In this document: positions 28,269 to 53,578 of the stretch, piece by piece
How the letters are laid out: every line of letters starts with the position of its first letter
How positions within the stretch are numbered: the stretch's first letter is position 1
NCBI GenBank assembly: GCA_947475545.1
Contig: CANJLL010000001.1
Coordinates: 755,734 to 819,733 of the forward strand
DNA: 64,000 nucleotides
Source: Chloroflexota bacterium
Lineage (GTDB): Bacteria; Chloroflexota; Limnocylindria; Limnocylindrales; CSP1-4
Direction: 5' to 3'
Position numbers and translations under genes: made by a program
Notes under the pieces: model-generated
What the model was told of the DNA's origin: nothing
The model's database searches: none
What the model saw: only the letters and a program-made list of their open reading frames with translations

Positions 28269-29137
28269 TCACCGCCGAGCTCCAGTTCCACCGGCCCGGG
28301 TCCGTCGCTGAGGCCCTGGAGCTGCTGGCCCGCCACGGCGACGACGCCAAGATCCTGGGTGGTGGCATGAGCCTGGTCCCCACCATGACCCTGGGCCTCG
28401 CCCGCCCCGAGATCGTCATCTCCCTCAACCACATCACCGAGCTCCGCGTCATCGCGGAGGACGCGGCCGCAGGCACGCTCCGGATCGGCGGGACGGCGCG
28501 CCACAACGACGTGATCGCCTCGCCCCTGGTCGCGCGTCATGCCCCGCTCCTCGCCGATGCGGCGCGCCACATCGGCGACATGCAGGTCCGCAACCGCGGC
28601 ACCATCGGCGGCAGCGTGGCCCACGCGGATCCCGCGGCGGACTACCTCCCGGCCCTGGTCGCGCTGGACGCGTCCGTGGTGGTCCGCAGCACGCGCGGCG
28701 AGCGGGTCATCCCAGCCGCGGAGTTCTTCATCGACGTCATGGCCACGGCCCTGGCGCCCGACGAGTTGATCGCCGAAATCCGTGTCCCGTCGCAGGGCAC
28801 CGCGCGGGGTGCCTATCGGCGCCTCACCCGGGTCGAGGGCTCCTTCGCCATCGTCAACGCCGCGGCCCTGGTCCGTCCGGCCGGCTCGGGCGCCTCGGTG
28901 GTAGCCATTGGCGGGGTCGCCGGGGCGCCAGTCGCGGTGGACGCCAGCACGGCCGTCTCGGCCGGCCTCACGGGCTCCGCCCTGGCGGCCTTCGAGGATG
29001 CGGTTCGCGCCGCCTGCCCCGAGCCCTTCGAGGATCTCAACGGCGACGCGGTCTACCGCCGCGAGATGGCCGTCATCCACGCCCGCCGCGCGCTGCTTGC
29101 GGCTGCGGGCCGCGCAGCCGCCGGCGTGACCGTCTGA
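28265..29137 (+). CDS. FAD-binding subunit of molybdenum hydroxylase (CoxM/XdhB-like)
   Basis: ATGA overlap with the L gene. ILGGGMSLVP and RNRGTIGGSVAHADPA motifs. Confidence 0.85.
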   Translation: MITAELQFHRPGSVAEALELLARHGDDAKILGGGMSLVPTMTLGLARPEIVISLNHITELRVIAEDAAAGTLRIGGTARHNDVIASPLVARHAPLLADAARHIGDMQVRNRGTIGGSVAHADPAADYLPALVALDASVVVRSTRGERVIPAAEFFIDVMATALAPDELIAEIRVPSQGTARGAYRRLTRVEGSFAIVNAAALVRPAGSGASVVAIGGVAGAPVAVDASTAVSAGLTGSALAAFEDAVRAACPEPFEDLNGDAVYRREMAVIHARRALLAAAGRAAAGVTV

Positions 29138-29179: not shown

Positions 29180-29719
29180 ATGCAGACCACCATCAAGCTC
29201 ACCGTCAACGGCCGGGCGCGGACCGTCGAGGTTGACTCGCGGATGATCCTCGCGGACATGCTCCGCGACCAGCTCCGCCTGACCGGCACGCACATCGGCT
29301 GCGGCACCGGCAACTGTGGCGCGTGCACGGTCATGCTCGACGGCCGGACGGTGAAGTCGTGCTGCGTCCTGGCGGCCGACGCGGACGGCGCCGACGTCCT
29401 CACCGTGGAGGGCCTGTACACCTCCCCGGACGACCTCCACCCCATCCAGCAGGCGTTCATCGCCAACCAGGGGCTCCAGTGCGGCTACTGCACCCCCGGG
29501 ATGATCCTCTCCGCCAAGCAGCTGCTGGACGCCAACCCCGATCCCACGGAGGACGAGATCCGGCACGGCATCTCGGGCAACCTGTGCCGCTGCACCGGCT
29601 ACCACTTCATCGTGGAGAGCATCCAGGATGCCGCCCGGGTCCTGCGCGGCGAGGCGTCGGCCCCGTCGGCCTCCATCACGGGCCTGCCGGCAAGCCCCGC
29701 GACCGACGTGGCCGGCTGA
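29180..29719 (+). CDS. (2Fe-2S)-binding subunit (CoxS/XdhC-like)
   Basis: [11 protein letters not shown] and CGYCTPG...CRCTGY cysteine clusters. Confidence 0.9.
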
Positions 29720-29778
29720 CCAACCGGGCACCAAACCCGCCTCGCCCTCCCCCACCCCGCCACGGAGCCCCCCTTCCC

Positions 29779-31203
29779 ATGGCACATGACCTCCGCAGCG
29801 CCCTCGATCTCCTCGACGCCGCCGGCGACCTGGAGACGGTCGCGCGCCCGGTGGATCGCGCCTGGGAGGTGACCGCTGTCCTGGACCGTCTCGAGCGTGA
29901 CGGGCGGTTCCCCGCGGTCCGGTACGATGCCGTCGAGGGCTTCCCCGGCTGGGCGATCGCGGGCAACCTCTTCGCCACCCGGTCCAAGATCGCCGCGTTC
30001 CTGGGCTGCGCGCCGGACCAGGTGACGGAGACTCTGGCCGCGCGCCTGGAGTCCCCGATTGACCCCATCCTCGTTTCCGGCGGTCCCGCCGCGCCGTCCC
30101 AGGAGGTGGTCCTGCTGGGCGACGACGCCACCCTGGACCGGATCCCGCTGGTCACTCACCACGAGCGGGACGCCGCGCCGTATGTCTCGCTGGGCGTGAC
30201 CATCGCCAAGGATCCCGAGACCGGCCGCCGGAACATGGGCGTCTACCGCTACATGCAGCACGGGCCTCGCTCGTTGATCCCGTCGCTCACGTCCATCGCC
30301 AACATCAGCGACCTGTTCAAGAAGGCCGAGGAGCGAGGCGTGCCCCTCGAGATCGCCATCCTCCCCGGCGTCCATCCGTTGCTCGCCCTGGCCGCCTCGT
30401 ACTCCGCCCCAACCGGCACGGACGAGCTGGCCCTGGCCGGCGGCCTCCTGGGCCGCCCCGTGGAGCTGGTCCGGGCCAGGACGCTCGACCTGGAGGTCCC
30501 GGCCGAGGCCGAGGTGGTCATCGAGGCCCGGATCATGCCCGGCGGGCGCTACCCGGAGGCGCCCTTCGCCGACATGTCGCGCTCGTACAGCCGGGTGAAG
30601 CAGGGGCCCATGACGGAGGTCTCGGCGATCACGCACCGGCGCAACCCCATCCTGCAGCTGGCCTTCTCCGGCCACCCCGACGCGACCAACATGGCCGCGG
30701 TCTGCCACGAGGTCGCCATCCTGCGGGCCACCCGCCAGGCGTCCCGTGGGATCACCGGCGTGCACGTCCCCGCCAGCGGCTACGGCTTCCACTGCTACAT
30801 CGCCATGAAGAAGCGACCCACGGTGGAGGGACGCGAACGCGGCGAGCAGATGAACGTGATGCTGGCGGCGCTGGGAGCCGTCCCGCAGATCAAGCTGATC
30901 ATCGTGGTCGACGACGACGTCGACATCTACCAGGACGAGGCCGTGCTGGGCGCCCTGGCCCGCCGGTTCCAGGTGGTGGACCCCATCACCCGCGATCAGC
31001 GGATCCTGGTCATCCCGGCCGCCAAGGGCGCGTCGTACGACCCGTCCAGCTTCCACCGCGAGTATCCCAACTCCAAGCTGCTCATCGACGCCACCATCCG
31101 GAGCGACCTGACCGACGAGCAGCGCAACAGCTTCACCGAGGCCGCCACCATCGGCGCCGACCGGATCGATCTCGCCCAATACCTGGAGGAGCGCACCCGA
31201 TGA
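29779..31203 (+). CDS. UbiD-family decarboxylase (paralog 3)
   Basis: Start [18 protein letters not shown]. Full-length UbiD fold. Its stop overlaps the next gene's start (ATGA). Confidence 0.9.
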
Positions 31204-32615
31204 GCCAGGCCGATCTCGTCATCAAGGGCGGCAAGGTCGTCAGCGAGCATGGCATCCGCGAGCAGTCGATTGCCGTCAAGGACGGGAAGATCGTCGCCGT
31301 GGGCGAGCAGGAGTCGATGCCGTCCGCCGCCCGGACGATCGATGCCGGGGGCAAGCACGTCTTCCCCGGGATCATCGACCCCCACATCCACCTGCAGACG
31401 TTCTCGAACAAGTTCGACATCAACATCAAGACCGAGTCGAAGTCCGCGGCGATCGGCGGCGTGACCACCATCATCCCCACCCTCCTCAACCGCGAGGACA
31501 ACCAGCTCTCCTTCCTGGAGCACTTCCCGTGGTGCAAGGAGGCGGTCGACAAGTACGCCACCATCGACGTGGCATTCAGCGCCGTGCTGGGCAGCACCGC
31601 CCAGATCCGCGAGATCCCCGAGATGGCCAGGCTGGGGATCAGCTCGTACAAGTTCTACATGGCCTACACCCAGGACGAGGCGAGCGTCTTCGGGATCAGC
31701 GCCATGGACGACGGCCAGGTCCTGGAGGGCCTGCGGGTCATCAAGGAGGTGGGCTACCCCGCCATGATGATGGTCCACGCCGAGAACATGACGATCATCC
31801 ACAAGCTCAAGGGCGAGTACATCGCCGCGGGCCGGGACGACCTCAAGGCGTGGACCGACGCGCGGCCCGACATCGCGGAGGAGGAGGCCACCCGGCGGGC
31901 CATCTGGTACGCCAGGGAGACCGGCAGCCGCCTGTACATCGTCCACATGACGATCGGGCGCGGCGTGCAGTGGGTCCGCGAGGCGCAGGCGCAGGGCGTG
32001 GACGTCATCGCCGAGACCTGCCCGCACTACCTGGTCCTGACCAAGTACGACAACGACAAGGTGGGCCGGCTGGGCAAGGTCAACCCCCCGCTCCGCGACC
32101 TCGAGAGCCAGGAGGCGCTCTGGGAGGGGATCCGCAACGGCGCCATCTCGTGCGTGGGCTCGGACCACTCCACCATCACGCCGCTGGCCGACAAGGTCCA
32201 GAAGGACATCTGGACAGCAGTCCCGGGCTTCCCCGGCTCCGGGATGCTCCTGCCGATCATGCTCAGCGAGGGCTACCACAAGGGCCGCGTCTCGCTGGAG
32301 AAGATCGCCTGGATCCTGTCCACCAACAACGCCCGCGTCTGGGGCCTCTACCCGGAGAAGGGCACCATCCAGGTGGGCTCGGACGCGGACTTCGCCATCG
32401 TCGACATCGATCGCAAGATGACGGTCAGCCCGGAGTACATGCAGTCCTTCGCGGACTGGGGCCTGTACGATGGCTGGGAGGTGACCGGCTGGCCGACGCA
32501 CACCATCGTGCGCGGCGAGGTGGTGATGGAGAACGGGAAGATCGTGGGTCGCGAGGGCTACGGCAAGTACATCCCGCGCTACCCGCGGTCGCGTCCCGAA
32601 GGGCCGCGCGCGTAG
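31200..32615 (+). CDS. Dihydropyrimidinase/D-hydantoinase-like cyclic amidohydrolase
   Basis: [10 protein letters not shown], carbamylated-Lys region ([10 protein letters not shown]), VHAEN, GSDHS. ~471 aa. Confidence 0.85.
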
Positions 32616-33763: not shown

Positions 33764-34106
33764 TCAGCCGCGGCCCAGGACCACGTCGATGCCGGCCAGG
33801 ACCAACTGGAGGTTCGACGCCGACAGGCGTCCGGCTCGCTCCGTCAGCGCCGCGCGATCCAGCGTGACCAGCTGCGAGACGTTGGCCGCCGACGGCGTGG
33901 CCAGCCCGGTCGCCCGGCCCGACAGGAGCACGTTGCCCGGCGCATCGGCCCATCGGCCATTGCTCGTCAGGGCGACGCAGACCACCGTCCGAATGGTGCT
34001 GGCGTTGAAGGCATCGCCGTGGACGACGACGGGCCGACGGAACCCGTGGGCCGAAGCGGCCGGGTCGCCCAGGTCGGCCCACCAGACCTCCCCCTCCGGC
34101 GATCAC
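33764..34106 (-). pseudogene. MazF/PemK-family toxin gene with an apparent +1 frameshift near its 5' end
   Basis: The frame after the antitoxin TGA encodes SPEGEVWWADLGDPAASAHGFRRPVVVHGDAFNAS...QLVTLDRAAL... (MazF-like) but has no start codon. The GTG overlapping the antitoxin stop (GTGA) is in the +1 frame. The GGAGGGGGAGG run has five G where four would restore MIAGGEVWWADLGD.... Confidence 0.55.
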
Positions 34107-34342
34107 CAGTCCACGGCCTCCAGGGTCCGGCGGGCTGCAGCGGAGACAAAGCCGTCGGCAGCGTGCTCATCGATCGCCGCCAGGGCGGCGTCCAGGCCTG
34201 CAGTCACCTCGTCGGGCGCGTGCCGGGCGAGGTACTCGCGGAGGGCGGCGCTGTACACGTCGCTCCGCGAGCGGCGCTCCCGGCTGGCCAGGCGATCCGC
34301 CCGCGCAAAAAGGTCGTCGGGCACGGACACGGCGGTCTTCAT
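34103..34342 (-). CDS. Ribbon-helix-helix (CopG/PemI-like) antitoxin
   Basis: 79 aa, starting MKTAVSVPDDLFARADRLASRERRSRSDVYSAALREYL. It lies directly upstream of the MazF-like ORF. Confidence 0.65.
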   Translation of the reverse strand: MKTAVSVPDDLFARADRLASRERRSRSDVYSAALREYLARHAPDEVTAGLDAALAAIDEHAADGFVSAAARRTLEAVDW

Positions 34343-34413: not shown

Positions 34414-37050
34414 CTAGCTCGCCTTGCGCACCTTGACCTTGACGCACGAGTCGATCGCCGCCGAGAGCGCGTCCATCCGGTCCGGCGTGTACTTGAGCAG
34501 CGAGTTCACGTGGACGCCCTTGCCCTGCGATTCCTTGCGGCCCAGCTTCTTGCGGCCCAGGATCGAGGGCACCGCCAGGCACTCGGGGTGGACCCCCTCG
34601 GTCAGGCGGGCCACCCCTTGGGCCGTCCGGCCATGCGTCGTCTCCAGGACGATGGTGTCGCCGTCGCGGATCCCCTTCTTCTCCGCGGTGGCGCGGTTGA
34701 TCCCGATGGTGAACACGCGGCTGTTGCGGTCCGCCATGTCCATCAGGACCGGGTTCTCGGCGCTGTAGGTGCCGGCCAGGAAGGTGAGCTTGTTGTTCAC
34801 CACCCAGAGGTCGTACTCGGCCGGGGCCTCCTCCGGCGTCAGGCACGGCTTCCAGTCCACCATGGGCGTGTAGTCGCCGGTGTCCCACGGGACACCCTGC
34901 ATGTCCGTGTAGGCCTTCACGTCAAGGCCGGCATCGATGTAGTGCTCCAGGTAGAGCGGCACCCGGCCGGCGTTGTGGATCTTTGGGTAGCTGTACTTGG
35001 CCGGCCGGTTCTCGCCCGAGTAGTAGCCGTGCTCGACCATGTACGCCAGGCCGTGCTCCTCGCCCAGCTGCGATCGAAGCCAGCGGTCGGAGATCTCCTC
35101 CCACGTGTACTTCTTGTCGCGCGCCAGCGCGTTGGACCCCTCCAGGACGGCCATCGCGTTGAGCGCGGTGTACATGTCGGGGAGGACACCCACGCGGTCC
35201 GCCGCGTCCAGGAGCACCTCGCCCCAGTGGCGGGCCAGCGGGACGGCCTTGACGATGGGGTGCTGGATGTTCCAGCTATAGGGCCGTCCGGGGAGCGGCG
35301 GGTCCATCAGGCCGTCCGGGTTGGACACGATGGGGACGAGGCGTTCCAGCGAATGGGTGTCCGGCAGCAGCAGGTCCGCAAACTGGGCGGTCTCGTCCGG
35401 GTAGGTGTTCATCGAGCAGATGAACGGGATGGTCCGGAGCGCCTCGGCCATGATCTCCGGGTCCGGGCCGCTGGCCATGATGTTGCCGCGGCACTGGAGC
35501 AGGACCTCGCACTTGTAGGTGAGGCCGTACTCCTCGCCGTGGAGGAGCGAGTGGCCCACCATCGCGCGGCTGTAGACGGCCGTGGGGAAGAGCTCCAGGA
35601 GCTCCAGCGTCTCGGGCGGCTTGATCTCGCGCCGCGGCAGCGCGGACTTCATGTGGCCGCCCCGGGGGTTGCCGGGGGTGATCATCCCGTCCGGGTCCAG
35701 CTTGGGGCCCCAGGTGGGTCCCGACGACGACGAGTTGAGCGTCCCGCCCGGCACGTCCACCGCGCCCAGGAGGATGTTGAGCTGGCCCATGGCCTGTCCG
35801 CTCATCATCCCGTGGCGGTGGGCGGAGATGCCGCGGTAGAAGGTGACGGCGGCCGACCGGAGCGGGTAGGTGACGCCGTCGATCTCGATGGTCCCGCCGA
35901 TCCCGGCGGCCTCCACCAGCTCCCTGGAGATCCGAGTGATGGACCCGGCCGGGATGGTGGTGATCTCCTGGACGCGGGCCGCGGTGTACGGCGCCAGGTG
36001 TTGCTTGAACGGGACGAACGCGGGGCTGACGGCAACGCCGTTGACCACGAACTCGCCCTCCAGAGCGGCCGCGTCCGGGTCCACCTGGTCGAAGCGGCCG
36101 GTGGCGCCGGTCGCCGAGATGCCCACCAGGGGCTTGCCGGACTCCGGGTCGCGGACGTACCGACCGTCCTGGCCCACCAGGTAGGTAGCGTTGGAGTACC
36201 GGCGCAGGAACGGCTTGTCGTACTGATCCAGGACCAGCACCCACTGGTGCATGATCCCCAGCGCGAGCGCGGCGTCGGTGCCGGGACGGATCGGGAGCCA
36301 CTCGTCGGCGTGGGATGCGGCCGCGGTGAGGACCGGGTCCACCACCACCAGCTTCATGCCGCGGGCGCGGGCGTCGGCCATCTCGCGGCTGAGCCCCATG
36401 GAGTTGTGGCCACCCACAAAGCCCAGCGACGCCCCGGCCATCAGCAGGTAGTTGCAGTGCTTGATGTCGGGGTGCATGTCGTTGCTGGCGGTCAGCGTGT
36501 ACGCCACGGGGTGCGAGGCGTTGCCGCAGAACATGCCGGCGGAGCCCGAGGTGACGTTGGGCGTCCCCAGCGCGTACGCGAAGGCGCGCAGGAGCGGGTA
36601 GCTGTAGATGTCGAAGGTGAGACCCAGGATCCCGCGCGGGTCCCTCTCCACGGCGGCCCGCAACTTCGTCGCGAGCAGGACCATGGCCTCGTCCCAGGAG
36701 ACCTCCTTCCAGCCTGGATCGACGCCGATCCCCTTCTGCGAGGTGGTCCGCACCATGGGCGCCTTGACCCGGTTGGGGGAGTAGACGTTCATGAGGGCCG
36801 ACAGGCCCTTGGCGCACGTTCGGCCGTAGTTGGGCGGGGCGTCCGGCACGCCCTCGATCTTCACCGCGACGCCATCGACGCGGTGGACGCGGACGGTGCA
36901 GGCGTTGAAGCACATGTCGCAGCCGGTGGTGAGCCAGACGTCTTCCTTGACGCCCCGGCCCGGACCCGTGGCGGCACCCGAGGCCGCACCGGCGCCCGGA
37001 CCCACCCCCGGGACCCCGCCCGCATTGATCACCGGAAGCTGGACTGCCAC
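34414..37050 (-). CDS. Molybdopterin oxidoreductase of the DMSO-reductase (bis-MGD) family with N-terminal [4Fe-4S] motif
   Basis: CDMCFNACTVRV...C cysteine cluster, followed by an ~830-aa Mo-bisPGD catalytic body. Start placed at the GTG 6 nt after GGAGG (reverse of 37057-37061). The track ORF extends to 37179. Confidence 0.8.
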   Translation of the reverse strand: MAVQLPVINAGGVPGVGPGAGAASGAATGPGRGVKEDVWLTTGCDMCFNACTVRVHRVDGVAVKIEGVPDAPPNYGRTCAKGLSALMNVYSPNRVKAPMVRTTSQKGIGVDPGWKEVSWDEAMVLLATKLRAAVERDPRGILGLTFDIYSYPLLRAFAYALGTPNVTSGSAGMFCGNASHPVAYTLTASNDMHPDIKHCNYLLMAGASLGFVGGHNSMGLSREMADARARGMKLVVVDPVLTAAASHADEWLPIRPGTDAALALGIMHQWVLVLDQYDKPFLRRYSNATYLVGQDGRYVRDPESGKPLVGISATGATGRFDQVDPDAAALEGEFVVNGVAVSPAFVPFKQHLAPYTAARVQEITTIPAGSITRISRELVEAAGIGGTIEIDGVTYPLRSAAVTFYRGISAHRHGMMSGQAMGQLNILLGAVDVPGGTLNSSSSGPTWGPKLDPDGMITPGNPRGGHMKSALPRREIKPPETLELLELFPTAVYSRAMVGHSLLHGEEYGLTYKCEVLLQCRGNIMASGPDPEIMAEALRTIPFICSMNTYPDETAQFADLLLPDTHSLERLVPIVSNPDGLMDPPLPGRPYSWNIQHPIVKAVPLARHWGEVLLDAADRVGVLPDMYTALNAMAVLEGSNALARDKKYTWEEISDRWLRSQLGEEHGLAYMVEHGYYSGENRPAKYSYPKIHNAGRVPLYLEHYIDAGLDVKAYTDMQGVPWDTGDYTPMVDWKPCLTPEEAPAEYDLWVVNNKLTFLAGTYSAENPVLMDMADRNSRVFTIGINRATAEKKGIRDGDTIVLETTHGRTAQGVARLTEGVHPECLAVPSILGRKKLGRKESQGKGVHVNSLLKYTPDRMDALSAAIDSCVKVKVRKAS

Positions 37051-37200
37051 GGGGCGCCTCCATTGCTTGCGTCGATGTTGATCGGCCCGCGCGGGCGGGT
37101 GATTGCGGGGATGCTGGCACCGCGAAGCGTCGGTGGCAATTGGGACCGTGCGTCCGGCGCCTCTCCGCGCCGGACGCACGCGATGCCGTTGGGGTCGCGC

Positions 37201-38061
37201 TCAGCCGACGCGCTCGATCGCGGCCTCGAGCGCTCGGCGGACCTGGACCCGGATAAGCGCCGTCCGGTACTCGCGGTCGGCGTGGATGTCGGAGGCGACC
37301 AGGACGCCGTCCGTGGCGTGGGCGGCGGCGGCGGCCGGATCGCCGGAGCTGAGGAACTCCTGCTCCGCAGCCGAGGCCCGGTAGGGGCACTCACCGACCC
37401 CGGTGATCCCGATGGCCGCCCGGTCGAACCGGCCGCCTCCACCGGTCGAGCGGCCGATGACAACGGCGGCCCCGGCGAGCGCGTACCCCGAAGCCGGCTG
37501 CTCCTGGGCGCGGTAGGCAGACCTGTAGTCACCCGATGCGGCCGGCAGGCGGATCTCCGTAATGAGCTCGTCGGGGAGGAGCACGGAGTTGAACGCACCT
37601 TCAAAGAAGCTGGTAAGGGCGATGGTTCGACCGCCTCGAGCCGACCGGACCACCACCTCGGCGTCGAGCACCAGGAGGCAGGCTGGGAGATCGGCGGCGG
37701 GGTCCACGTGGGCGACCGCTCCTCCGATCGTCCCCCGGTTGCGCACCTGGACATCGCCGATGGTGGGCAGGACGTCCGCCAGCAGGCCGTAGACGGTGAT
37801 GGCCGGGTTTGCCAGGAGCTCGGAGTAGGTTGTCAGGGCGCCGATCGAGAGCCCGCCGTCGCCGAGGCGGTTCACGCCGCGCAGCTCGTTCAGGCGCCCG
37901 ATGTCGATGAGCCGGTCGGGCCGGGCCAGCCTGGTCTTCATGATGGGCAGCAGGCTGTGGCCCCCGGCCAGCACCTTGGTGCCCGGGTCCGCCTCGGCGA
38001 GGAGGGCCAGGGCCTGGTCCACGCTGTCCGCCCGGCGATAGTCGAACGCGAGCGACGTCAT
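37201..38061 (-). CDS. FAD-binding subunit of molybdenum hydroxylase (CoxM-like)
   Basis: LAGGHSLLP and RNRGTIGGAVAHVDPA. ATGA overlap with the upstream L gene. Confidence 0.85.
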   Translation of the reverse strand: MTSLAFDYRRADSVDQALALLAEADPGTKVLAGGHSLLPIMKTRLARPDRLIDIGRLNELRGVNRLGDGGLSIGALTTYSELLANPAITVYGLLADVLPTIGDVQVRNRGTIGGAVAHVDPAADLPACLLVLDAEVVVRSARGGRTIALTSFFEGAFNSVLLPDELITEIRLPAASGDYRSAYRAQEQPASGYALAGAAVVIGRSTGGGGRFDRAAIGITGVGECPYRASAAEQEFLSSGDPAAAAAHATDGVLVASDIHADREYRTALIRVQVRRALEAAIERVG

Positions 38062-40460
38062 GCCTGGCCTCCCTTCGCGGTCTGGATCGCGCGCCAGACG
38101 GTCTGTGGCGTGTACGGCATGTCGAGGTGACGGACCCCGAGCGGGCCCAGCGCGTCCACCACGGCATTGGCCACCGCTGCGGTGCTGGCGATGGCGCCAG
38201 CCTCACCGACGCCCTTGACCCCGATGGGGTTGACCGGCGACGGCGTGACGGTCTCGTCGAGCTCGAACGACGGCAGCCAGGCGGCCCGGGGCAGCGCGTA
38301 GTCCAGCAGCGAGCCGGACAACAGCTGGCCCTGGTCGTCGTAGACGGCGCCCTCCCAAAGCGCCTGGCCGACGCCCTGGGCGATCCCGCCGTGGAGCTGG
38401 CCGTCCACGATCATCGGGTTGATCTTGTTGCCGACGTCGTCCACGGCGACGTAGCGGACCAGGTCGACATGCCCGGTCTCCTCGTCGATCTCGACGATGG
38501 CGATGTGCGTCCCGAACGGCCACGTGCAGTTCGTCGGGTCGTAGTACGCCGTCTCGTCGAGGTACGGCTCCATGCCCACGGGGGTATCGAACGCAAGGTC
38601 AAGCGCGAAAGCGATCTCCTGGAGGGTCTTCACCTTGTCCGGGCTGCCCCGCACGCTGTAGTTGGCGCCGTCGATCTCGATATCCTCGGGCGCCGCCTCG
38701 AGCATGTGCGCGGCGTAGCGCCTCGCCTTCTCCCGGATCTTGCCCGCGGCCTTGATCGCCGCCGTGCTCCCGACCGACGAAGTCCGGCTGCCGTACGACC
38801 CGTAGCCGAACGGCGTCCCCTGGGTGTCCGAGTGCTGGACGATGACGTCGTCCACCGGCACGCCCAGCTCGTGGCTGATGACCTGCGAGTAGGTCGTCTC
38901 GTGACCCTGTCCCTGCGGGGAGGTCCCGATGGTGAGGACGACCTTCCCGGTCAGGTGGACGCGGATGTTGGACGACTCCCACATCGCGGCACCCCAGCCT
39001 TCGCCGACCGCACCGATCCACTTGCTGGGCGCGACGCCGCAGACCTCGAGATAGGTGCTCAGGCCGAGGCCCAGGTACTTGCCGCGCAGGCGGGCATCGG
39101 CCTTCCGGGCGGCCAGGTCCTCGTAGCCGACCATGGCGAGGGCCTTGTCGAGCGCCGGCTCGTAATTGCCGGAGTCGATGTAGATCTTCGCGCCGCCGGA
39201 CGCGGTCCCGAGGCCCGACGGGTTGTCGTAGGGGAAGGCGTTGGGGGCGATGAAGTTGCGGCGCCGGATCTCCGCGCGGTCCATGCCGATCTCGCGGGCG
39301 AACAGGTCCATCGCCCGTTCGATCACGTAGGTCGCCTCGGGTCGGCCGGCGCCCCGGTAGGCGTCCACGAACGTCGTGTTCGTGTAGACGCCGGTCACCT
39401 CGGCCTACACGTTGGGGATCTTGTAGCAGCCGCTCAGGACCCTGGCGTATAGCGTTGTGGGGATGCCCGGGCCGATGGTGGACAGCCGCCCGCCGAGATT
39501 GGCCAGCGTCTTGACCCGCAGCCCGGTGATCTCGCCGTCACGCTTGCCGGCGATCTCGAGGTACGTAATGTGATCGCGCCCGTGGATCGTGGACTGGTAG
39601 TTCTCGCGCCGACCCTCGATCCACTTGACCGGGCGCCCACCGATCCGCTTGGAGGCCAGCAGGACCAGGGCATAGTCGGCGTAGCAGAAGATCTTGGTTC
39701 CAAAGGCGCCGCCGACATCCGGCGCGATGCAGCGGAGCTTGTGCTCCGGGATGCCCATCGTGAAGATGCCGACCAGCAAACGCTGGATGTGCGGCGTCTG
39801 GCTGGACATCCAGAGGGTGTACTCCTCGGTGCCCGGGTTGTACCAGCCGATGTCGCCGCGCGTCTCCATCGGGTTGGGGATCAGGCGCTGGTTCACGAGT
39901 CGCTGGCGGACCACGACCTCGGCCGTATCGATGGCCGCCTCGGTGCCGGCCTTGTCGCCGACGCTCCACTCGAAGACGACGTTGTTCGGGGCGTTCTCGT
40001 GGAGCTGCGGCGCGCCCGCGGCGACGGCCTTCTCCGCGTCCACGACCGCCGGCAACGGCTCGTAATCCACGACGATCTCGGCCAGGGCATCGAACGCCTG
40101 GGCCGGGGTCTCCGCGACGACCGCGGCGACGCCCTCGCCGGTCCACTTGACCCCATCGGTGGCCAGAATCCGCGGCGAGTTCACGTTGTTCCTGAGGCCG
40201 GCCGAGCCGCCCGCCGGCCAGACCATCGGCAAGGGGTTGTACGGGACGTCCGCGCCGACAATCACGTGGATGACGCCCGGCATGGCCCTGGCGGCCGTGA
40301 CGTCAACGGAGCGGATATTGGCGTGGGCATATGGGCTGCGCAGGATGGCCATGTGGGCCATCGACGGCAGCTTGATGTCATCGATGTAGTTGCCCGCACC
40401 GGTGATGAACCGGGGATCCTCGCGGCGCTTGATGGAAGCGCCGAGTGCGTCGATCGCCAT
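38058..40460 (-). pseudogene. Xanthine dehydrogenase-family molybdopterin large subunit interrupted by one in-frame TAG (complement 39405..39407); may instead be a naturally split gene
   Basis: The N-terminal part (351 aa: MAIDALGASIKRREDPRF...GCYKIPNV) and C-terminal part (446 aa: GVYTNTTFVDAYRGAGRPEA...GVGEAG) are contiguous in one frame. A single amber codon separates them. A GTG lies 2 codons after it. Confidence 0.75.
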
Positions 40461-40472
40461 CGAAGCCTCCCC

Positions 40473-40973
40473 CTACCCGACGATGCCGGAGTCGGATGCC
40501 GACCCGGTGTGCATGGTCACGGCGGCCTCACGGATGGCCGCGACGATGTTGTGATAGCCCGTGCAGCGGCACAGGTTGCCGTGAATCGCGTGGCGAATCT
40601 GCTGGTCGCTGGGATCCGGGACGCGGGCCAGCAGGTCTGCGGCGGACATGATCATGCCGGGCGTGCAAAAGCCGCACTGGAGGCCATGCTTCTCCCAGAA
40701 CGCAGCCTGGATCGGATGGAGCTCGCCTCCGGCCGCCAGTCCCTCGATCGTCGTCACGGTGGCGCCGTCCGCCTGCACGGCCAGGACCGTGCACGACTTC
40801 ACCGACTGGCCGTCCATGTGGACCGTGCATGCGCCGCACTGTGAGGTGTCACAGGCGACGTGGGTGCCGGTCAGGCCAAAGTCTTCGCGCAGGACCTCGA
40901 CCAGCAACCGCCGCGGCTCGACGTCGACCTCCCGGCGCTGGCCATTCACCACGAGCGTCACGTGTTCGGCCAC
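40473..40973 (-). CDS. (2Fe-2S)-binding subunit (CoxS-like)
   Basis: [11 protein letters not shown] and CGFCTPG...CRCTGY. Confidence 0.9.
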
Positions 40974-41178
40974 GGGCGGACCCCCCTTCTGTGCGGTCGC
41001 CGGCGAGGCGACCTGCGGACCACCACGAGGGCTCGCCAGGAGGTTGCCGGCTTACCGGCACCGAGCGGGCCAGAAGTGCCGCAGATGCTGGCACCGCGAA
41101 GGGGCGCTGGCAAGTGGGTGATGTCGATCCGGCGCAGCGGCCCGCGGCCGACACGGGAGCGGCGGCGCGGACCCGAGG

Positions 41179-42435
41179 TCAGGCCCGCGCGACCTCCTCG
41201 AGCGCCCTTCCGAAGCCGTCCACGATCGCGTCCAGCTCCGCCTCCGTGATCACGAACGCCGGCGACAGCTGGATGGCGTGGCCGCGGATGCTGCGCGTCG
41301 CCACCCCGTGGCGGATGCACGCCGCCGCCACCTTGTCCGCGAGCGCCGGGTCGGCCGCCAGGAGGTCGGGCCGCAAGGCGACCGCGCCCGTCAGGCCCAC
41401 GGTGCGAATCTCGCTCACCAGCGGTGCACCCTCCAGGCGCCGGAGCGCCCGGTCCAGGATCGGCGTCATGGTTCGGACCCGCCCGATCAGGTCCTCGCGC
41501 TCGACGATGTCCAGGTTCGCCAACGCCGCGACGGCAGATGCCGCGTGTCCGCTATACGTGTAGCCGTGCTTGAAGACGCCGCCCGGCACCGGGTTGTCCC
41601 AGAATGGCGCCCGAACGCGTTTGCCCACGAGCACCCCGCCGATCGGGAGGTACCCGGATGAGACGCCCTTGGCGAAGGTCATCATGTCCGGCTGGATCCC
41701 GTACGCGATGCTGCCGAACCACTCACCCATTCGGCCAAACCCGCAGATGACCTCGTCGGCGATGAGCAGGATGTCGTGCTCGCGGCAGAGGCGGTTCACC
41801 TCCGCCCAGTAATGCGGCTCCGGGGCGATGACCCCGCCGGCCCCGATGACCGGTTCGCCGATGAACGCGGCAATCTCGTGGCCACGCTGCTCGAAGAGCG
41901 CGCCCAGGCCCTCCGTGTCACCGACGCCGACGTGGATCACCTCGTCGATGAAGGCGCCGCCGTAGCCCGCCTTGTTGCCGGGGATGCCCGCCAGCGACGT
42001 GCCCCAGCCGTGCATCCCGTGGTAGCCGTGCTCACGGGAGACGATGACCCGCTTCCCGGGCTTGCCGAGGAGGTCCCAGTAGCGGCGCGCCAGCTTGGCG
42101 GCCGTGTCCACCGCGTCGGAACCGCCGGCGCCGAAGAAGACGACCGTGTCCTCCATCGGCGAGAGGGCCGCCAGGCGGTCGGCAAGCTGGATGGTGGCTT
42201 CGGTGGCGAACGCCCCGAAGTTGGAGTAGGCGTGGAGCTGCGTCAGCTGGGCTGCGACGCGGTCGGCGATCTCCTGGCGCCCGTACCCAACGTTGCAGTA
42301 CCAGAGGGATGCGGTGGCATCCAGGTAGTCGCGGCCGTGCACGTCGGTGATGACGACGCCCTTGCCGGAGCGGATGATCAGCTCGGCGTTCGCCACGCTG
42401 TGCATGTCGGCGAACGGATGCCAGAGCGAGCCCAT
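41179..42435 (-). CDS. Class III (omega) aminotransferase, PLP-dependent
   Basis: Aspartate-aminotransferase-fold class III motifs with the FAKGVSSGYLP lysine region. ATG preceded by AGGAGG with a 5-nt spacer. Confidence 0.85.
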   Translation of the reverse strand: MGSLWHPFADMHSVANAELIIRSGKGVVITDVHGRDYLDATASLWYCNVGYGRQEIADRVAAQLTQLHAYSNFGAFATEATIQLADRLAALSPMEDTVVFFGAGGSDAVDTAAKLARRYWDLLGKPGKRVIVSREHGYHGMHGWGTSLAGIPGNKAGYGGAFIDEVIHVGVGDTEGLGALFEQRGHEIAAFIGEPVIGAGGVIAPEPHYWAEVNRLCREHDILLIADEVICGFGRMGEWFGSIAYGIQPDMMTFAKGVSSGYLPIGGVLVGKRVRAPFWDNPVPGGVFKHGYTYSGHAASAVAALANLDIVEREDLIGRVRTMTPILDRALRRLEGAPLVSEIRTVGLTGAVALRPDLLAADPALADKVAAACIRHGVATRSIRGHAIQLSPAFVITEAELDAIVDGFGRALEEVARA

Positions 42436-44627: not shown

Positions 44628-45358
44628 TCAGGCCCGCTGGGCACCGATGCGACGGGTGGCGGCGGCCCAGGCCTCGGCCGGTGCCTTGCCGGCGTCCAAT
44701 GCGACCGCGTACTCGGCGACCAGGGTGGTGAAGATGCCGTCCGCATCAGTGGTGGGGGCCGACAGGATGGTGGCATTCTGGGGCGCGCCCTCGGCGAGGA
44801 GCGCCTCCGGGTCGCCGATGATCACCAGCGCGGCCCCGGCAAATGCGGCACCGTCTGCCGCGGCGGCGACGAGGCCCGACGCGGCCGGATCGGCGAGCAC
44901 GACGACCGAAAGGTCCGTCAGGTAGCGGAGCGCCAGCTCCAGGTCGCCGGGCTCCAGCGCCAGGCCAGTCGCATCCAGCTCCAGGTCCGCGCGGGCGGCG
45001 TCGTCGCCATCCTCGGCCTCGGCCTCCGCCTCGATGGCATCGAGCCACTCGTCGTCCGCATCGTCCATGTCGGCGGACCGGGCCGCGACGGGCTCGGGGG
45101 CGATCACGGGCGTGGGCCGCGATGGATCACGGAGGATCGCGGCGTGGCCAACCGAGGCGCGCGTCAGCGCGAAGAGGGTCGCATCGCCGACCGGATCATC
45201 GCCCAGTTTGGCGATCAGCTCCACGCGGGACCCATCGGCGGCCGCGGCGACCGCGATCCGACCGGCCAGGCCACCGACGCCGACCCGGGTGCCCTCCGTC
45301 CCGGTTGCCATCGTTTCCTGGTCCGCTACCGCGAGGAGCCGCCCGATCACAGCAATCA
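44628..45358 (-). CDS. Hypothetical protein with an acidic Asp/Glu-rich insert
   Basis: ORF with plausible composition from MIAVIGRLLAV. No confident family; weak PfkB-like hints only. Confidence 0.4.
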
Positions 45359-45439
45359 TGGGCTGGAGCGTAGCGGTTTCCACGGCCAGCCGCCCCGCGA
45401 CCAAGGGCGGGGCGGGCACCACCCGAGGCCCGCAGTCCG

Positions 45440-46300
45440 CTAGGGCGTGGCCCCAGGGCTCGTCGTCGGGTTCGCGCTCGATCCGCCACCACCCCCGCCG
45501 CCGCTGTTCGGGCTGGTGGCCCTGGGCGTGCCGATCGGCGTCGCCGTCGGTGATGGCTTGGGCACGTGGCTGCCGTCGGGTGACGCCAATGGCGAGGGCG
45601 AAGCCGTCTGACCAGGGCCGAGCCTGGGATCGTCCGACCCGCGCCCGCGGCGGTCGTCCGTCGCGGCCGGGAGTCCGCTGGCATCGGGGGCCGTGGTCTC
45701 GCCCGGTCCCGCGGAGGACGCAGGCTCGACGGACGCGCCGGGTGCGCGGGTCTCGCCCGGGGCCAGTGACCGACCCGGAACCAGGGTGCTCCCGGGGACC
45801 GCCGCCGGCTGCGAGGCCACGGGCGCCGGCGTGGAGGTTCCGTCCGGCGAGAGGAGCGACGCGGTGCCGACCACGGCGACGCTGGCCGCGGAACCCAGCA
45901 CCGCAAGGGCGACGAAGACATAGGCGAGGGCCCCAGCACGCCCGACCAGCGAGCGGCCCGGACCAAAGGCGACACACCATGCGTCGCGGAAGGCGGCGAG
46001 GCCGGCCGAAACGATACCCAGCCCGGCTGTCTTGCCGGCAACCACCGCCGCCGATCGCGGCGCCGGCTCGCGCTCGATCGCGACCATCACGCGCGCCACG
46101 AAGTCGGGATCCGCCGCGCCCGTGCCTCCACCGGCGAGTCCGAACTCCTCGACCGGGCTCCCGTCCCTGGCAACGGCGGAGCTCAGCTCCCGCGCCATCG
46201 CCCAGGCATGACCCAGCTCGGCGTTGGACGGATCGGGTCCGTCTCCGCCGCGGAGCTCGTCAGGATCGAAGCCAGGCCGAAGGCCCCCGGGGCCGCTCAC
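45440..46300 (-). CDS. Anti-sigma factor (single-pass membrane protein with Pro/Ser/Thr/Gly-rich extracytoplasmic tail)
   Basis: Overlaps the sigma gene stop. Central TM segment ALAYVFVALAVLGSAASVAVVG. Low-complexity C-terminus ending in a Gly run. Confidence 0.6.
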   Translation of the reverse strand: MSGPGGLRPGFDPDELRGGDGPDPSNAELGHAWAMARELSSAVARDGSPVEEFGLAGGGTGAADPDFVARVMVAIEREPAPRSAAVVAGKTAGLGIVSAGLAAFRDAWCVAFGPGRSLVGRAGALAYVFVALAVLGSAASVAVVGTASLLSPDGTSTPAPVASQPAAVPGSTLVPGRSLAPGETRAPGASVEPASSAGPGETTAPDASGLPAATDDRRGRGSDDPRLGPGQTASPSPLASPDGSHVPKPSPTATPIGTPRATSPNSGGGGGGGSSANPTTSPGATP

Positions 46301-52055: not shown

Positions 52056-52874
52056 CTAGAAGTCCCGCGGGTCCGCGAAGCCGGCCCGCTCGGCCTGCAG
52101 GAACGTGACCATCTCGAACGCGGCTCCAGCGTCCAGGGTGCGGTTGAGCTGCTCCACCACGTGGCGGTTGACCACGCGCTTCGTCCAGGCCAGCGCGTAG
52201 GCGGGGCGCTGGAGCAGCCGTCGGACGAAGTCGTCGACCGTGGCGTCCAGCTCCCCGGCCGGGACGGCGCGGTTGATCAGGTGCATGTCGGCCAGCTCCC
52301 GACCGCTGAACGTGCGTCGGAGCATCAGGAACTCCTTGACCACCGGCGGCGAGAAGAAGAGTGGCGCCAGCGCCATGCCGCCGTCCCCGGGCACGATCCC
52401 GAACGGGGCACCAAACGGCTCGCCGTTCAGTTCCAACTCCGCGAGCGCCAGGTGGGTGTCCCCAACGAGCGCGTCCTCGCGGGCGATGATCAGATCACAG
52501 CCGAACATGAATGCCGGCGCAAACCCCATGACGGTTCCGTTGACCCGCGCCACGATGGGCTTCTCGATCTGCGCCATCGCCTCGTGGCAGCGGACCAGGC
52601 CGGTGAACGTGCGCCAGAGGCGACGCGGGTCCGTGAGCGTCCCCGGCGTAGCCATCGAGGCTCGATACTGGGCCGTGGTGGGGCCCAGCGAGAAGATCCC
52701 GTCGTGCTCGCCCGTGATCACGATGACGCGGACGGAATCCTCGCCGCGCAGGGCGCTGAACACCTCCCCGAGGTCCCAGTGGATGTCGCCGCCCGGCCGC
52801 TTTGGGTGACGGATCCGGATGGTGGCCACCTGCCCGGCCACGTCCATGGCGATCGATGGATAGTCGAGCTTCAC
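52056..52874 (-). CDS. Enoyl-CoA hydratase/isomerase (crotonase)-family protein
   Basis: Crotonase fold (ATIRIRHPKRP..., ARVNGTVMGFAPAFMFGCDLIIA). GTG at 52874 or ATG at 52847. The upstream Arg/Gly-rich extension is excluded. Confidence 0.7.
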   Translation of the reverse strand: MKLDYPSIAMDVAGQVATIRIRHPKRPGGDIHWDLGEVFSALRGEDSVRVIVITGEHDGIFSLGPTTAQYRASMATPGTLTDPRRLWRTFTGLVRCHEAMAQIEKPIVARVNGTVMGFAPAFMFGCDLIIAREDALVGDTHLALAELELNGEPFGAPFGIVPGDGGMALAPLFFSPPVVKEFLMLRRTFSGRELADMHLINRAVPAGELDATVDDFVRRLLQRPAYALAWTKRVVNRHVVEQLNRTLDAGAAFEMVTFLQAERAGFADPRDF

Positions 52875-52947
52875 GGGCCCCTCCTGTCCCGCGGATCGTA
52901 CCGCCGACACGTACGGCGACAGCTGGCCGAACCTACAATCCCCGCCA

Positions 52948-53567
52948 TGCACACCCCGTCGTCCCTTCACCGGGCCCTCGCCACCGCCGCCATGGCGATC
53001 CTGGTCCTCCTGGTGGCACCCATGGGGGCCCTGGGGCATGCGGCCCTCAACGCCAGCGACCCCGCGGACAAGGCCACGGTCCCCGGTCCGCACCCGGGGC
53101 CCATCACCCTGGCCTTCTCGGAAGCACTCCGGTCGGGCAGCCACGCGGAGCTGCTGAACGCCGGCGGGACCAAGGTGGCCGACGCGGCCATCAACGCGGC
53201 CAACCCGGCCCTCATGACCTTCACCCTGGCGGCGCCGCTGGCGCCGGGCGCCTATTCGATCCAGTGGACGAGCGTCGCCGCGGACAAGGACGTCGCCCGC
53301 GGGACCCTGTCGCTCACGGTCGCCCAGCCCACGCCGGCGCCCGCCGCGCCGACCATCGCCACCACGGCCACACCCGCCGCGCCGACGGCCCCGTCGGCCG
53401 CCGCGTCCATCGCCCCGTCGACGGCGGCCCCCGCGACCGCCGCCCCGGCCGCCGGCTCGGACGCGGCGTCGTCGGGCGGCATGGACGTGCTCATCCCGAT
53501 CATCGCCGTGGTCGTGCTCGTCGGCGTCGTAACGACCGTGCTCGTCCGCCGCAAGCCCGCAGCCTGA
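52948..53567 (+). CDS. CopC-domain copper-binding protein with C-terminal membrane anchor
   Basis: Signal peptide, then HAALNASDPADKATV (CopC N-terminal His site), a Pro/Ala/Thr linker, and a C-terminal TM. Confidence 0.7.
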
Positions 53568-53578
53568 TCCGCCGCCTA

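What the first reader, a model, noticed from the sequence alone, without database searches (positions are those of the whole stretch)
38058..40460. Mo-hydroxylase large subunit split by a single amber codon, with a GTG two codons later
One reading frame encodes a complete CoxL-like protein except for a TAG at complement 39405-39407, falling between KIPNV and AEVTGVYTNT. The same position in the paralog at 25812 reads VQL, and a CAG to TAG change would be a single transition. Two codons after the stop is a GTG that would begin a 446-aa C-terminal fragment. Three readings are possible. It may be a recent nonsense pseudogene or a sequencing error. It may be a naturally split large subunit, as in Eubacterium barkeri nicotinate dehydrogenase (NdhL/NdhM), where the N-fragment here (~38 kDa) would match the smaller piece. 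It may be translational read-through. The flanking S and M subunits and the downstream bis-MGD gene are intact.
Basis: seen in the sequence. Interest (0 to 1): 0.6.

Follow-up and report, generated by a model that had tools for sequence, protein, structure and literature searches.

The report
Young nonsense pseudogene of CoxL-like subunit
One freshwater Chloroflexota strain carries a real single-base change that turns a conserved tyrosine codon into a stop in a molybdenum-enzyme gene, so this is most likely an ordinary, recently inactivated gene rather than a naturally split or recoded one.

Summary
A single in-frame TAG (window 39405-39407, minus strand) interrupts an otherwise complete 800-codon CoxL-like (xanthine dehydrogenase family, AYRGAGR type) large-subunit gene, and a GTG lies two codons later. 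The TAG is not an assembly error: at least 24 contigs from separately accessioned metagenome assemblies carry it, and seven were read here (two runs traced to the Řimov reservoir), on a near-clonal backbone (99.98-100 % over 13 kb). It is derived and strain-specific. All 83 intact orthologues read are uninterrupted, and the 81 tabulated have Tyr (79) or Phe (2) at this site. These include three relatives at about 96-97 % DNA identity across the gene. The ancestral codon is TAC, so the change is a C>G transversion, not CAG>TAG. The split-subunit reading fails on several counts. The break lies inside Pfam MoCoBD_1 and in a predicted β-strand, about 100 residues upstream of the NdhL/NdhM split, and the piece sizes are in the opposite order. 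The GTG has no Shine-Dalgarno (-2.4 versus about -10 kcal/mol). Restarting there would delete Y352-A353-E354, and E354 is invariant. TAG ends about 16 other genes in the window, so the codon is not reassigned. Lineage-specific changes downstream of the stop are 5 nonsynonymous to 0 synonymous, including D407N at an invariant site. Verdict: a young, fixed nonsense pseudogene of low interest.

The parts
40473..40973 (-). 2Fe-2S small subunit (CoxS-like), 166 aa, intact. Its own stop codon is TAG (40473-40475).
   Evidence: Pfam Fer2 + Fer2_2. Sequence and ORF list. Called as a gene in public contigs. Strong SD, -10.3 kcal/mol.
39405..40460 (-). N-terminal 351 codons of the CoxL-like large subunit, ending at the premature TAG.
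   Evidence: Ald_Xan_dh_C plus MoCoBD_1 positions 1-192 of 244. The exact protein is found on at least 24 public contigs.
39405..39407 (-). Premature amber codon TAG, derived from TAC (Tyr352) by a C>G change at window position 39405.
   Evidence: L007 reads TAC; 79 Tyr and 2 Phe in 81 intact orthologues; the change is polarised to the window branch.
39396..39398 (-). In-frame GTG (Val355 in orthologues), a possible but unsupported restart codon.
   Evidence: Anti-SD duplex is -2.4 kcal/mol, no better than the mean (-3.0) of internal in-frame start-like codons. V355 and E354 are invariant in 81/81 orthologues.
38058..39398 (-). C-terminal 446 codons of the large subunit: rest of MoCoBD_1, the AYRGAGR loop, MoCoBD_2 and the GVGEAG catalytic Glu motif.
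   Evidence: Pfam and translation. Window-private changes are 5 nonsynonymous to 0 synonymous.
37201..38061 (-). FAD-binding medium subunit (CoxM-like), 286 aa, intact. Its ATG overlaps the large-subunit TGA (ATGA).
   Evidence: FAD_binding_5 + CO_deh_flav_C. Sequence. SD -10.0 kcal/mol.
34414..37050 (-). Downstream bis-MGD molybdopterin oxidoreductase (878 aa as called; the ORF is open up to 37179), intact. It is probably a separate unit, about 150 nt after coxM.
   Evidence: Molybdop_Fe4S4, Molybdopterin and Molydop_binding. Gene calls. Coordinates.

Best explanation
This is a genuine, recent loss-of-function mutation. In one near-clonal freshwater lineage of Candidatus Limnocylindria (Chloroflexota), a single C>G transversion changed the conserved Tyr352 codon (TAC) to amber (TAG). 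The gene is the large subunit of a form-II-like CoxL / xanthine dehydrogenase family molybdenum hydroxylase (AYRGAGR active-site loop; substrate unknown; not a true CO dehydrogenase). Shown: the mutation is real, derived, and present on every contig of this backbone that was recovered. Inferred: translation stops after residue 351, inside the first MoCo-binding domain and just before the active-site loop, so no functional large subunit is made. The gene is therefore a young pseudogene whose sequence has barely begun to decay. Also inferred: translational coupling to coxM (overlapping ATGA) is lost, and loss of the enzyme is tolerated, perhaps because the genome carries paralogous enzymes, two of them in this window.
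For: The mutation is real.
- The exact 351-aa product ending at this TAG is indexed in 26 blocks and was read on 24 contigs from ENA and Logan assemblies of different samples. The collection records 14 + 2 contigs for the N fragment and 15 for the C fragment.
- Seven such loci have the identical gene, and six of them are 99.98-100 % identical to the window over 4.7-13 kb.
- Runs ERR3761204 and ERR3761222 are Řimov reservoir metagenomes.

The mutation is derived and lineage-specific.
- Eighty GTDB species-representative orthologues plus L007 are uninterrupted, with Tyr (79) or Phe (2) at position 352.
- L089, read separately, is also uninterrupted with Tyr at 352.
- The closest relatives L008, L007 and L089 (about 96-97 % DNA identity in the gene) read TAC/Tyr.
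- The same backbone with Tyr restored is absent from the 15-billion-protein collection.

Constraint looks relaxed.
- Window-private substitutions are 3N:15S upstream of the stop but 5N:0S downstream (Fisher p = 0.0017). The intact lineage L089 shows 4N:43S in the same region (p = 5e-5).
- D407N hits a residue invariant in 81/81 orthologues. A variant within the TAG lineage carries N196T in the NPMETRG motif, where N is found in 80/81.
- The closest pairwise comparison of the C part gives dN/dS = 1.66, against 0.02-0.3 for neighbouring genes.

There is no rescue signal.
- TAG terminates about 16 of 42 other candidate genes, including coxS 12 nt upstream.
- The GTG lacks an SD.
- There is no tRNA in the window.
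- The local RNA fold is unremarkable.
Against: - Apart from the stop, the gene is pristine. There are no frameshifts, all catalytic motifs (AYRGAGR, GVGEAG, GYGSYGSR) are intact, and GC3 is 0.92-0.94, as in real genes. Some residual function cannot be excluded.
- The allele is present in many samples, so it is not strongly deleterious. Persistence over time was not established, because sampling dates were not examined.
- The N:S contrast rests on few sites. Three of the five changes cluster in nine codons of a variable region. Recombination mosaicism is evident. dN/dS is known to be inflated at very short divergence.
- A GTG six nucleotides after a stop could allow some termination-reinitiation.
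- No expression data are available.
Confidence: 0.8

Rival explanations
1. Nascent functional gene fission. Ribosomes terminate at TAG and reinitiate at the GTG six nucleotides downstream. This would give a 38-kDa and a 47.5-kDa polypeptide that co-fold into an active two-piece large subunit, analogous in principle to NdhL/NdhM.
For: - The GTG lies two codons after the stop, in the same frame.
- Gene callers call both pieces.
- The TAC>TAG change itself creates an AGG five nucleotides upstream of the GTG.
- The rest of the gene is intact.
- The allele is present in many samples.
- A natural split of this subunit exists in E. barkeri (3HRD).
Against: - The break is inside Pfam MoCoBD_1 and inside a predicted β-strand, residues 350-359. 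That model has low confidence, pLDDT about 55-63.
- A restart would remove Y352-A353-E354 and replace V355 with fMet. E354 and V355 are invariant in 81/81 orthologues and Y352 is Tyr or Phe in all.
- The SD duplex is -2.4 kcal/mol, against about -10 for real starts in the operon, and no better than random internal start-like codons.
- None of the 83 intact orthologues is split.
- The Ndh split point is about 100 residues away, with the piece sizes in the opposite order.
- Downstream changes are 5N:0S, including an invariant Asp.
Confidence: 0.08
2. Leaky read-through. Near-cognate decoding of UAG (for example by tRNA-Tyr or tRNA-Gln), or an amber suppressor elsewhere in the genome, yields enough full-length 800-aa subunit to retain function.
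For: - The gene is otherwise intact and the allele is present in many samples.
- The ancestral residue is Tyr, and the Tyr codon differs from UAG only at the third position.
- Basal UAG read-through is known in bacteria (general knowledge, not tested here).
Against: - TAG ends about 16 of 42 other candidate genes in the window, including the coxS gene immediately upstream. An efficient suppressor would therefore be costly, and the codon is not reassigned.
- There is no tRNA in the window.
- There is no stimulatory structure (z = -1.1).
- The stop is not conserved in any relative.
- There are signs of relaxed constraint downstream.
- Basal read-through is typically well under 1 %, which falls short of programmed expression.
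Confidence: 0.06
3. Sequencing or assembly artefact. The true codon is TAC and the gene is intact.
For: A single-base difference is the kind of change an error could produce. Read pile-ups could not be inspected.
Against: - The identical TAG occurs in at least 24 contigs produced by different assemblers and pipelines from different runs and samples.
- The Tyr version of this exact backbone is not in the collection.
Confidence: 0.02

Closest known systems
Ordinary strain-specific nonsense pseudogenes in bacterial populations
   Same: A single derived point mutation creates a premature stop in an otherwise intact gene. All relatives are uninterrupted. There are early signs of relaxed constraint. 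The affected function has paralogues.
   Different: Nothing of principle differs. It is noteworthy only that the allele is found across many metagenome assemblies of a near-clonal uncultivated freshwater lineage.
Eubacterium barkeri nicotinate dehydrogenase NdhL/NdhM (PDB 3HRD), a naturally split Mo-hydroxylase large subunit
   Same: Same enzyme superfamily. Two adjacent ORFs together cover one large subunit. The fragment masses are superficially similar (50 and 37 kDa there; 38 and 47.5 kDa here).
   Different: - The Ndh split lies between the two MoCo-binding domains (NdhL covers residues 4-402 and NdhM 480-794 of the homologue), whereas this break is at residue 352 inside MoCoBD_1.
- The order of large and small pieces is inverted.
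- There is no ribosome-binding site for the second piece here.
- Three conserved residues would be lost.
Form I aerobic CO dehydrogenase CoxL (for example PDB 8UEM, 1N5W)
   Same: Best structural homologues (E = 1.9e-207). Same three-domain architecture and S-L-M gene order. The Tyr equivalent to Y352 is also present in 8UEM.
   Different: The active-site loop is AYRGAGR, not AY(x)CSFR, so the Cu-binding Cys is absent. The summed TIGR02416 score (about 720 bits) is below the 991-bit cut-off. It is a form-II-like enzyme of unknown substrate.

Membership tests
Xanthine dehydrogenase / CoxL family Mo-hydroxylase large subunit | Domain architecture Ald_Xan_dh_C + MoCoBD_1 + MoCoBD_2 | tested here: met
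   All three domains are found across the two fragments, with MoCoBD_1 split at profile positions 192/197.
Xanthine dehydrogenase / CoxL family Mo-hydroxylase large subunit | Catalytic Glu near the C-terminus (GVGEAG) and partner 2Fe-2S and FAD subunits encoded alongside | tested here: met
   GVGEAG is present in the translation and aligned to GIGESA of 8UEM. Fer2/Fer2_2 and FAD_binding_5 genes flank it.
Form I aerobic CO dehydrogenase (CoxL sensu stricto) | Active-site loop AYxCSFR with the Cu-ligating cysteine | tested here: not met
   The loop reads AYRGAGR. 8UEM has AYACSFR at the aligned position.
Form I aerobic CO dehydrogenase (CoxL sensu stricto) | Score above the NCBIfam TIGR02416 equivalog cut-off (991 bits) | tested here: not met
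   279 + 441 bits for the two fragments. The intact gene was not scored as one sequence.
Naturally split large subunit (NdhL/NdhM type) | Split located between the MoCo-binding domains, with each piece a folding unit | tested here: not met
   The stop lies inside MoCoBD_1 and in predicted strand 350-359 (low-confidence model). The NdhL/NdhM boundary maps to about residues 402-480.
Naturally split large subunit (NdhL/NdhM type) | The second ORF has its own translation-initiation signal, and the split is conserved among relatives | tested here: not met
   SD duplex is -2.4 against about -10 kcal/mol. None of 83 intact orthologues is split.
Nonsense pseudogene | The stop is a derived state relative to orthologues and is real in the organism | tested here: met
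   TAC in L007, L008 and L089. Tyr or Phe in 81/81 tabulated orthologues. TAG in at least 24 contigs from separately accessioned assemblies.
Nonsense pseudogene | Relaxed purifying selection after the stop | tested here: inconclusive
   5N:0S downstream against 3N:15S upstream (p = 0.0017). D407N falls at an invariant site and N196T occurs as a polymorphism. However, the sites are few, recombination is evident and the divergence is very short.
Nonsense pseudogene | No functional product (no full-length or assembled protein) | not testable with these tools
   This needs metaproteomics, metatranscriptomics or heterologous expression.
Programmed stop-codon recoding (pyrrolysine, suppressor or read-through) | TAG decoded as sense genome-wide, or a conserved in-frame TAG with a recoding signal | tested here: not met
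   TAG ends about 16 of 42 other genes. The stop is not conserved. The fold z-score is -1.1. There is no tRNA in the window. The rest of the genome was not available.

The most novel reading that the evidence does not exclude
This could be a gene fission caught at birth. The TAC>TAG change simultaneously creates a stop and a weak AGG upstream of an in-frame GTG. Termination-reinitiation would then produce two polypeptides that still assemble into a working Mo-hydroxylase, explaining why the allele is present in many samples of a natural population with every catalytic motif intact.
Probability: 0.06. Interest if true: 0.6.

Novelty: already known. Interest (0 to 1): 0.15.

Why it matters
As a biological mechanism it matters little, because it is a routine early-stage pseudogene. 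It has some practical value.
- It shows that the in-frame stop is a true population variant rather than a MAG error. Annotators should therefore mark the two ORFs as one disrupted gene, not as two 'xanthine dehydrogenase family' proteins.
- It offers a dated-by-sequence example of gene inactivation in a freshwater Limnocylindria lineage. A recent study links that class to genome erosion during freshwater colonisation (PMC13212565). That link is context only and was not tested here.

Tried and rejected
- **JGI metagenome scan.** I scanned the JGI metagenome contigs for the 33-nt site pattern with N at the variable base, to obtain allele frequencies. It returned 0 hits.
- **Restored allele.** An exact look-up of the restored (Tyr352) allele on the window backbone found nothing in the collection.
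- **Structure prediction.** An AlphaFold2 model built from 30 close orthologues was poor (mean pLDDT 55, pTM 0.38). I used only its secondary-structure call around residue 352, flagged it as weak, and ran no fold search.
- **tRNA scan.** The window scan for a suppressor tRNA found none.
- **RNA structure.** A fold of the 121 nt around and after the stop was unremarkable (z = -1.1).
- **Promoter and terminator scan.** The scan of 37000-41300 found none.
- **Codon reassignment or pyrrolysine.** I considered and rejected this because TAG is a common terminator in the window.
- **Recombination patch.** I considered whether the D447E/D450A/E455D cluster was imported by recombination. No orthologue has E447, so this is unlikely. 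I nevertheless re-tested with the cluster counted as one event, and by my own hand calculation it remained significant (p about 0.015).
- **Not attempted.** I did not search for other lineages split at this site among distant homologues, because the output limits of the protein searches (best 120-150 hits, all full-length orthologues) made that uninformative.
Full report
**1. Observation**

On the minus strand the window reads ...TAC AAG ATC CCC AAC GTG TAG GCC GAG GTG ACC GGC GTC TAC ACG AAC....
- The TAG occupies 39407-39405 and the GTG occupies 39398-39396.
- Translating 40460..38058 in one frame gives 351 residues, one stop, then 449 residues up to the normal TGA. There is no other interruption.
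- The ORF list shows 39405..40460 (351 aa, ATG) and 38058..39398 (446 aa, GTG). Their masses are 37.9 and 47.5 kDa.

Pfam places Ald_Xan_dh_C and positions 1-192 of MoCoBD_1 in the first piece. Positions 197-244 of MoCoBD_1 plus all of MoCoBD_2 fall in the second piece. The stop therefore cuts through a domain, just before the AYRGAGR loop.

The neighbouring genes are intact:
- the 2Fe-2S subunit (40473-40973);
- the FAD subunit (37201-38061), whose ATG overlaps the large-subunit TGA;
- a bis-MGD oxidoreductase (34414-37050).

**2. The stop is real**

The exact 351-aa product ending at this stop is indexed in 26 blocks of the public gene collection and was read on 24 contigs. These come from ENA and Logan assemblies of different samples and runs.
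- The cluster look-up lists 14 contigs for this N fragment, 2 for a one-residue variant of it, and 15 for the C fragment. The longest contig is 1.33 Mb.
- Six such loci have a gene identical to the window over all 2403 nt. They are 99.98-100 % identical to the window over 4.7-13 kb.
- A seventh locus, L088, also carries the TAG and differs from the window by one base.
- Runs ERR3761204 and ERR3761222 are Řimov reservoir (Czech Republic) metagenomes (PMC10244341).
- The sample labels MEHR18 and KAVA23 probably denote studies of the same reservoir. That is my recollection and was not verified.

A one-off sequencing or assembly error is excluded. The allele belongs to a near-clonal natural population.

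**3. The stop is derived and lineage-specific**

A scan of one genome per GTDB species returned 80 orthologous loci at 79-98 % protein identity. All are from Chloroflexota MAGs, many named Candidatus Limnocylindrales.
- Every one of these 80 is uninterrupted, as is L007. Residue 352 is Tyr in 79 and Phe in 2 of those 81. L089, read separately, is also uninterrupted with Tyr at 352.
- Tyr is also present at the aligned position in the solved CoxL structure 8UEM.
- Three close relatives have an intact gene with TAC/Tyr:
  - L008, MAG LJ_bin-2554, 95.8 % DNA identity over 11 kb;
  - L007;
  - L089, from a MEHR18 sample.
- The mutation is therefore TAC>TAG, a third-position C>G transversion. In that paralogue the aligned residue is in fact Asn.
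- The window backbone with Tyr restored is not present among 15 billion proteins.
- The window's genome did not appear among the GTDB representatives, although it would have ranked first. It probably belongs to the species represented by L008, which has the intact gene. This last point is an inference.

**4. Tests of the split-subunit reading**

- **Position.** In E. barkeri nicotinate dehydrogenase (3HRD), NdhL (425 aa) aligns to residues 4-402 of the orthologue and NdhM (330 aa) to residues 480-794. The reported masses are 50 and 37 kDa (PMC10331938). The natural split lies between the two MoCo-binding domains, and the larger piece comes first. Here the break is about 100 residues upstream, inside MoCoBD_1, and the smaller piece comes first.
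- **Initiation signal.** The real starts of coxS, coxL, coxM and the paralogous coxL pair with the anti-SD at -10.0 to -11.2 kcal/mol. The GTG at 39398 reaches only -2.4. The mean of the 39 internal in-frame ATG/GTG/TTG codons of the same gene is -3.0.
- **Residues lost.** A restart at the GTG would omit Y352, A353 and E354 and turn V355 into the initiator. E354 and V355 are invariant in 81/81 orthologues.
- **Structure.** The site sits in a predicted β-strand, residues 350-359, but the model is poor (pLDDT 55) and this point is weak.
- **Relatives.** No relative is split.

Some termination-reinitiation six nucleotides after a stop is mechanistically possible. Nothing suggests that it yields a functional enzyme.

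**5. Tests of recoding or read-through**

- By a GC3-based gene approximation, 25 ORFs in the window end in TGA, 17 in TAG (one being the N fragment) and 1 in TAA. The coxS gene 12 nt upstream of coxL ends in TAG. TAG is therefore a normal terminator here, and an efficient suppressor would be costly.
- No tRNA gene lies in the window.
- The 121 nt around and after the stop fold no better than shuffles (z = -1.1).
- There are no promoter-like or terminator-like sites in 37000-41300.
- Basal near-cognate read-through cannot be excluded, but it would be unprogrammed and low.

**6. Evidence on selection**

I used L089, L007 and L008 to identify substitutions private to the window lineage.
- Upstream of the stop there are 3 nonsynonymous and 15 synonymous changes.
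- Downstream of the stop there are 5 nonsynonymous and 0 synonymous changes: D407N, D447E, D450A, E455D and M511I.
- The contrast gives Fisher p = 0.0017. Against the intact lineage L089 in the same region (4N:43S) it gives p = 5e-5.
- D407 is invariant in 81/81 orthologues, and only 1 of 81 has Ile at position 511.
- The closest pairwise comparison of the C part, window versus L007, gives dN/dS = 1.66. Neighbouring genes and other comparisons give 0.02-0.3.

Within the TAG lineage, the only three polymorphisms seen in 13 kb are all non-silent and all fall in this gene cluster:
- coxL N196T, in the NPMETRG motif, where N is found in 80/81 orthologues;
- a 3-nt contraction in a poly-Ala tract of coxM;
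- bis-MGD T761A.

Several caveats apply.
- The counts are small.
- Three of the five changes cluster in a variable stretch. Counting them as one event still gives p about 0.015 by my own hand calculation.
- The gene is a recombination mosaic. The relative distances to L007, L008 and L089 differ between the N and C parts.
- dN/dS is inflated at very short divergence.
- L007 is a 2.8x-coverage contig with suspicious changes in catalytic motifs.

Overall the data lean towards relaxed constraint, as expected for a recent pseudogene.

**7. What the gene was**

- The best solved homologues are aerobic CO dehydrogenase large subunits: 8UEM at E = 1.9e-207, then 1FFU and 1N5W.
- The active-site loop is AYRGAGR rather than AYxCSFR, and the NCBIfam CO-dehydrogenase score is below its cut-off.
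- It is therefore a form-II-like CoxL / xanthine dehydrogenase family enzyme of unknown substrate.
- The window carries two further complete large-subunit paralogues, at 15835-18186 and 25812-28268. Redundancy may make the loss tolerable; this is an inference.

**8. Verdict**

This is a real nonsense mutation present on every recovered contig of a near-clonal freshwater Limnocylindria population, and most probably a young pseudogene (confidence about 0.8).
- A functional split by reinitiation has a probability of about 0.08.
- Functional read-through has a probability of about 0.06.
- An artefact has a probability of about 0.02.

The finding is ordinary. Its main use is correct annotation, as one disrupted gene rather than two, and as a small example of ongoing gene loss in this lineage. 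A recent study discusses genome erosion in freshwater Limnocylindria (PMC13212565), but that link was not tested here.

Noticed in passing
window 38058-40460 versus L007, L008 and L089: The coxL gene is a recombination mosaic among close relatives. In the N part the window is about equally far from all three relatives (44-53 differences). In the C part it is almost identical to L007 (12 differences) but far from L089 (62 differences).
   Followed up: partly
L007:447-2849 (ERZ4222710, coverage 2.8x): The closest intact relative carries radical substitutions in otherwise invariant motifs: GVGEAG>GVGGAG (loss of the catalytic Glu), GYGSYG>GYWSYG and EGWGAAM>EGSGAAM. Its private changes in the C part are 5N:1S. 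This reflects either low-coverage errors or a second decaying copy.
   Followed up: no
L088:6587, L001:about 9138, L002:11691 (window equivalents lie in coxL, coxM and the bis-MGD gene): The only three polymorphisms seen among TAG-lineage contigs over 13 kb are all non-silent and all lie in the coxL-coxM-bisMGD cluster. They are coxL N196T, a GCC-repeat contraction that removes one Ala in coxM, and bis-MGD T761A. The result is anecdotal, about p = 0.1 for location alone.
   Followed up: partly
window 15835-18186 (-), 25812-28268 (+), 28265-29137 (+): There are two further complete XDH/CoxL-family large subunits in the same 64 kb. One has its own FAD subunit immediately downstream. This shows heavy paralogy of Mo-hydroxylases in this genome.
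   Followed up: partly
window 9896-14367 (+), 29323-32615 (+): A hydantoinase/oxoprolinase A+B pair is present. So is a UbiD-family decarboxylase with a long N-terminal extension (626 aa), followed by an amidohydrolase overlapping by 4 nt and lying next to the paralogous Mo-hydroxylase. Together these suggest a heterocycle or aromatic catabolic island.
   Followed up: no
window 33764-33985 (-) and 34103-34342 (-): A small PemK-family toxin gene and a 79-aa ORF lie just downstream of the bis-MGD gene, possibly a toxin-antitoxin pair. Both are noticeably more diverged from L008 (90-92 % aa) than the surrounding genes.
   Followed up: no
window 52802-54967 (+) and 44628-45980 (-): Two long high-GC3 ORFs (721 and 450 aa) have no Pfam match at E <= 1e-5.
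   Followed up: no
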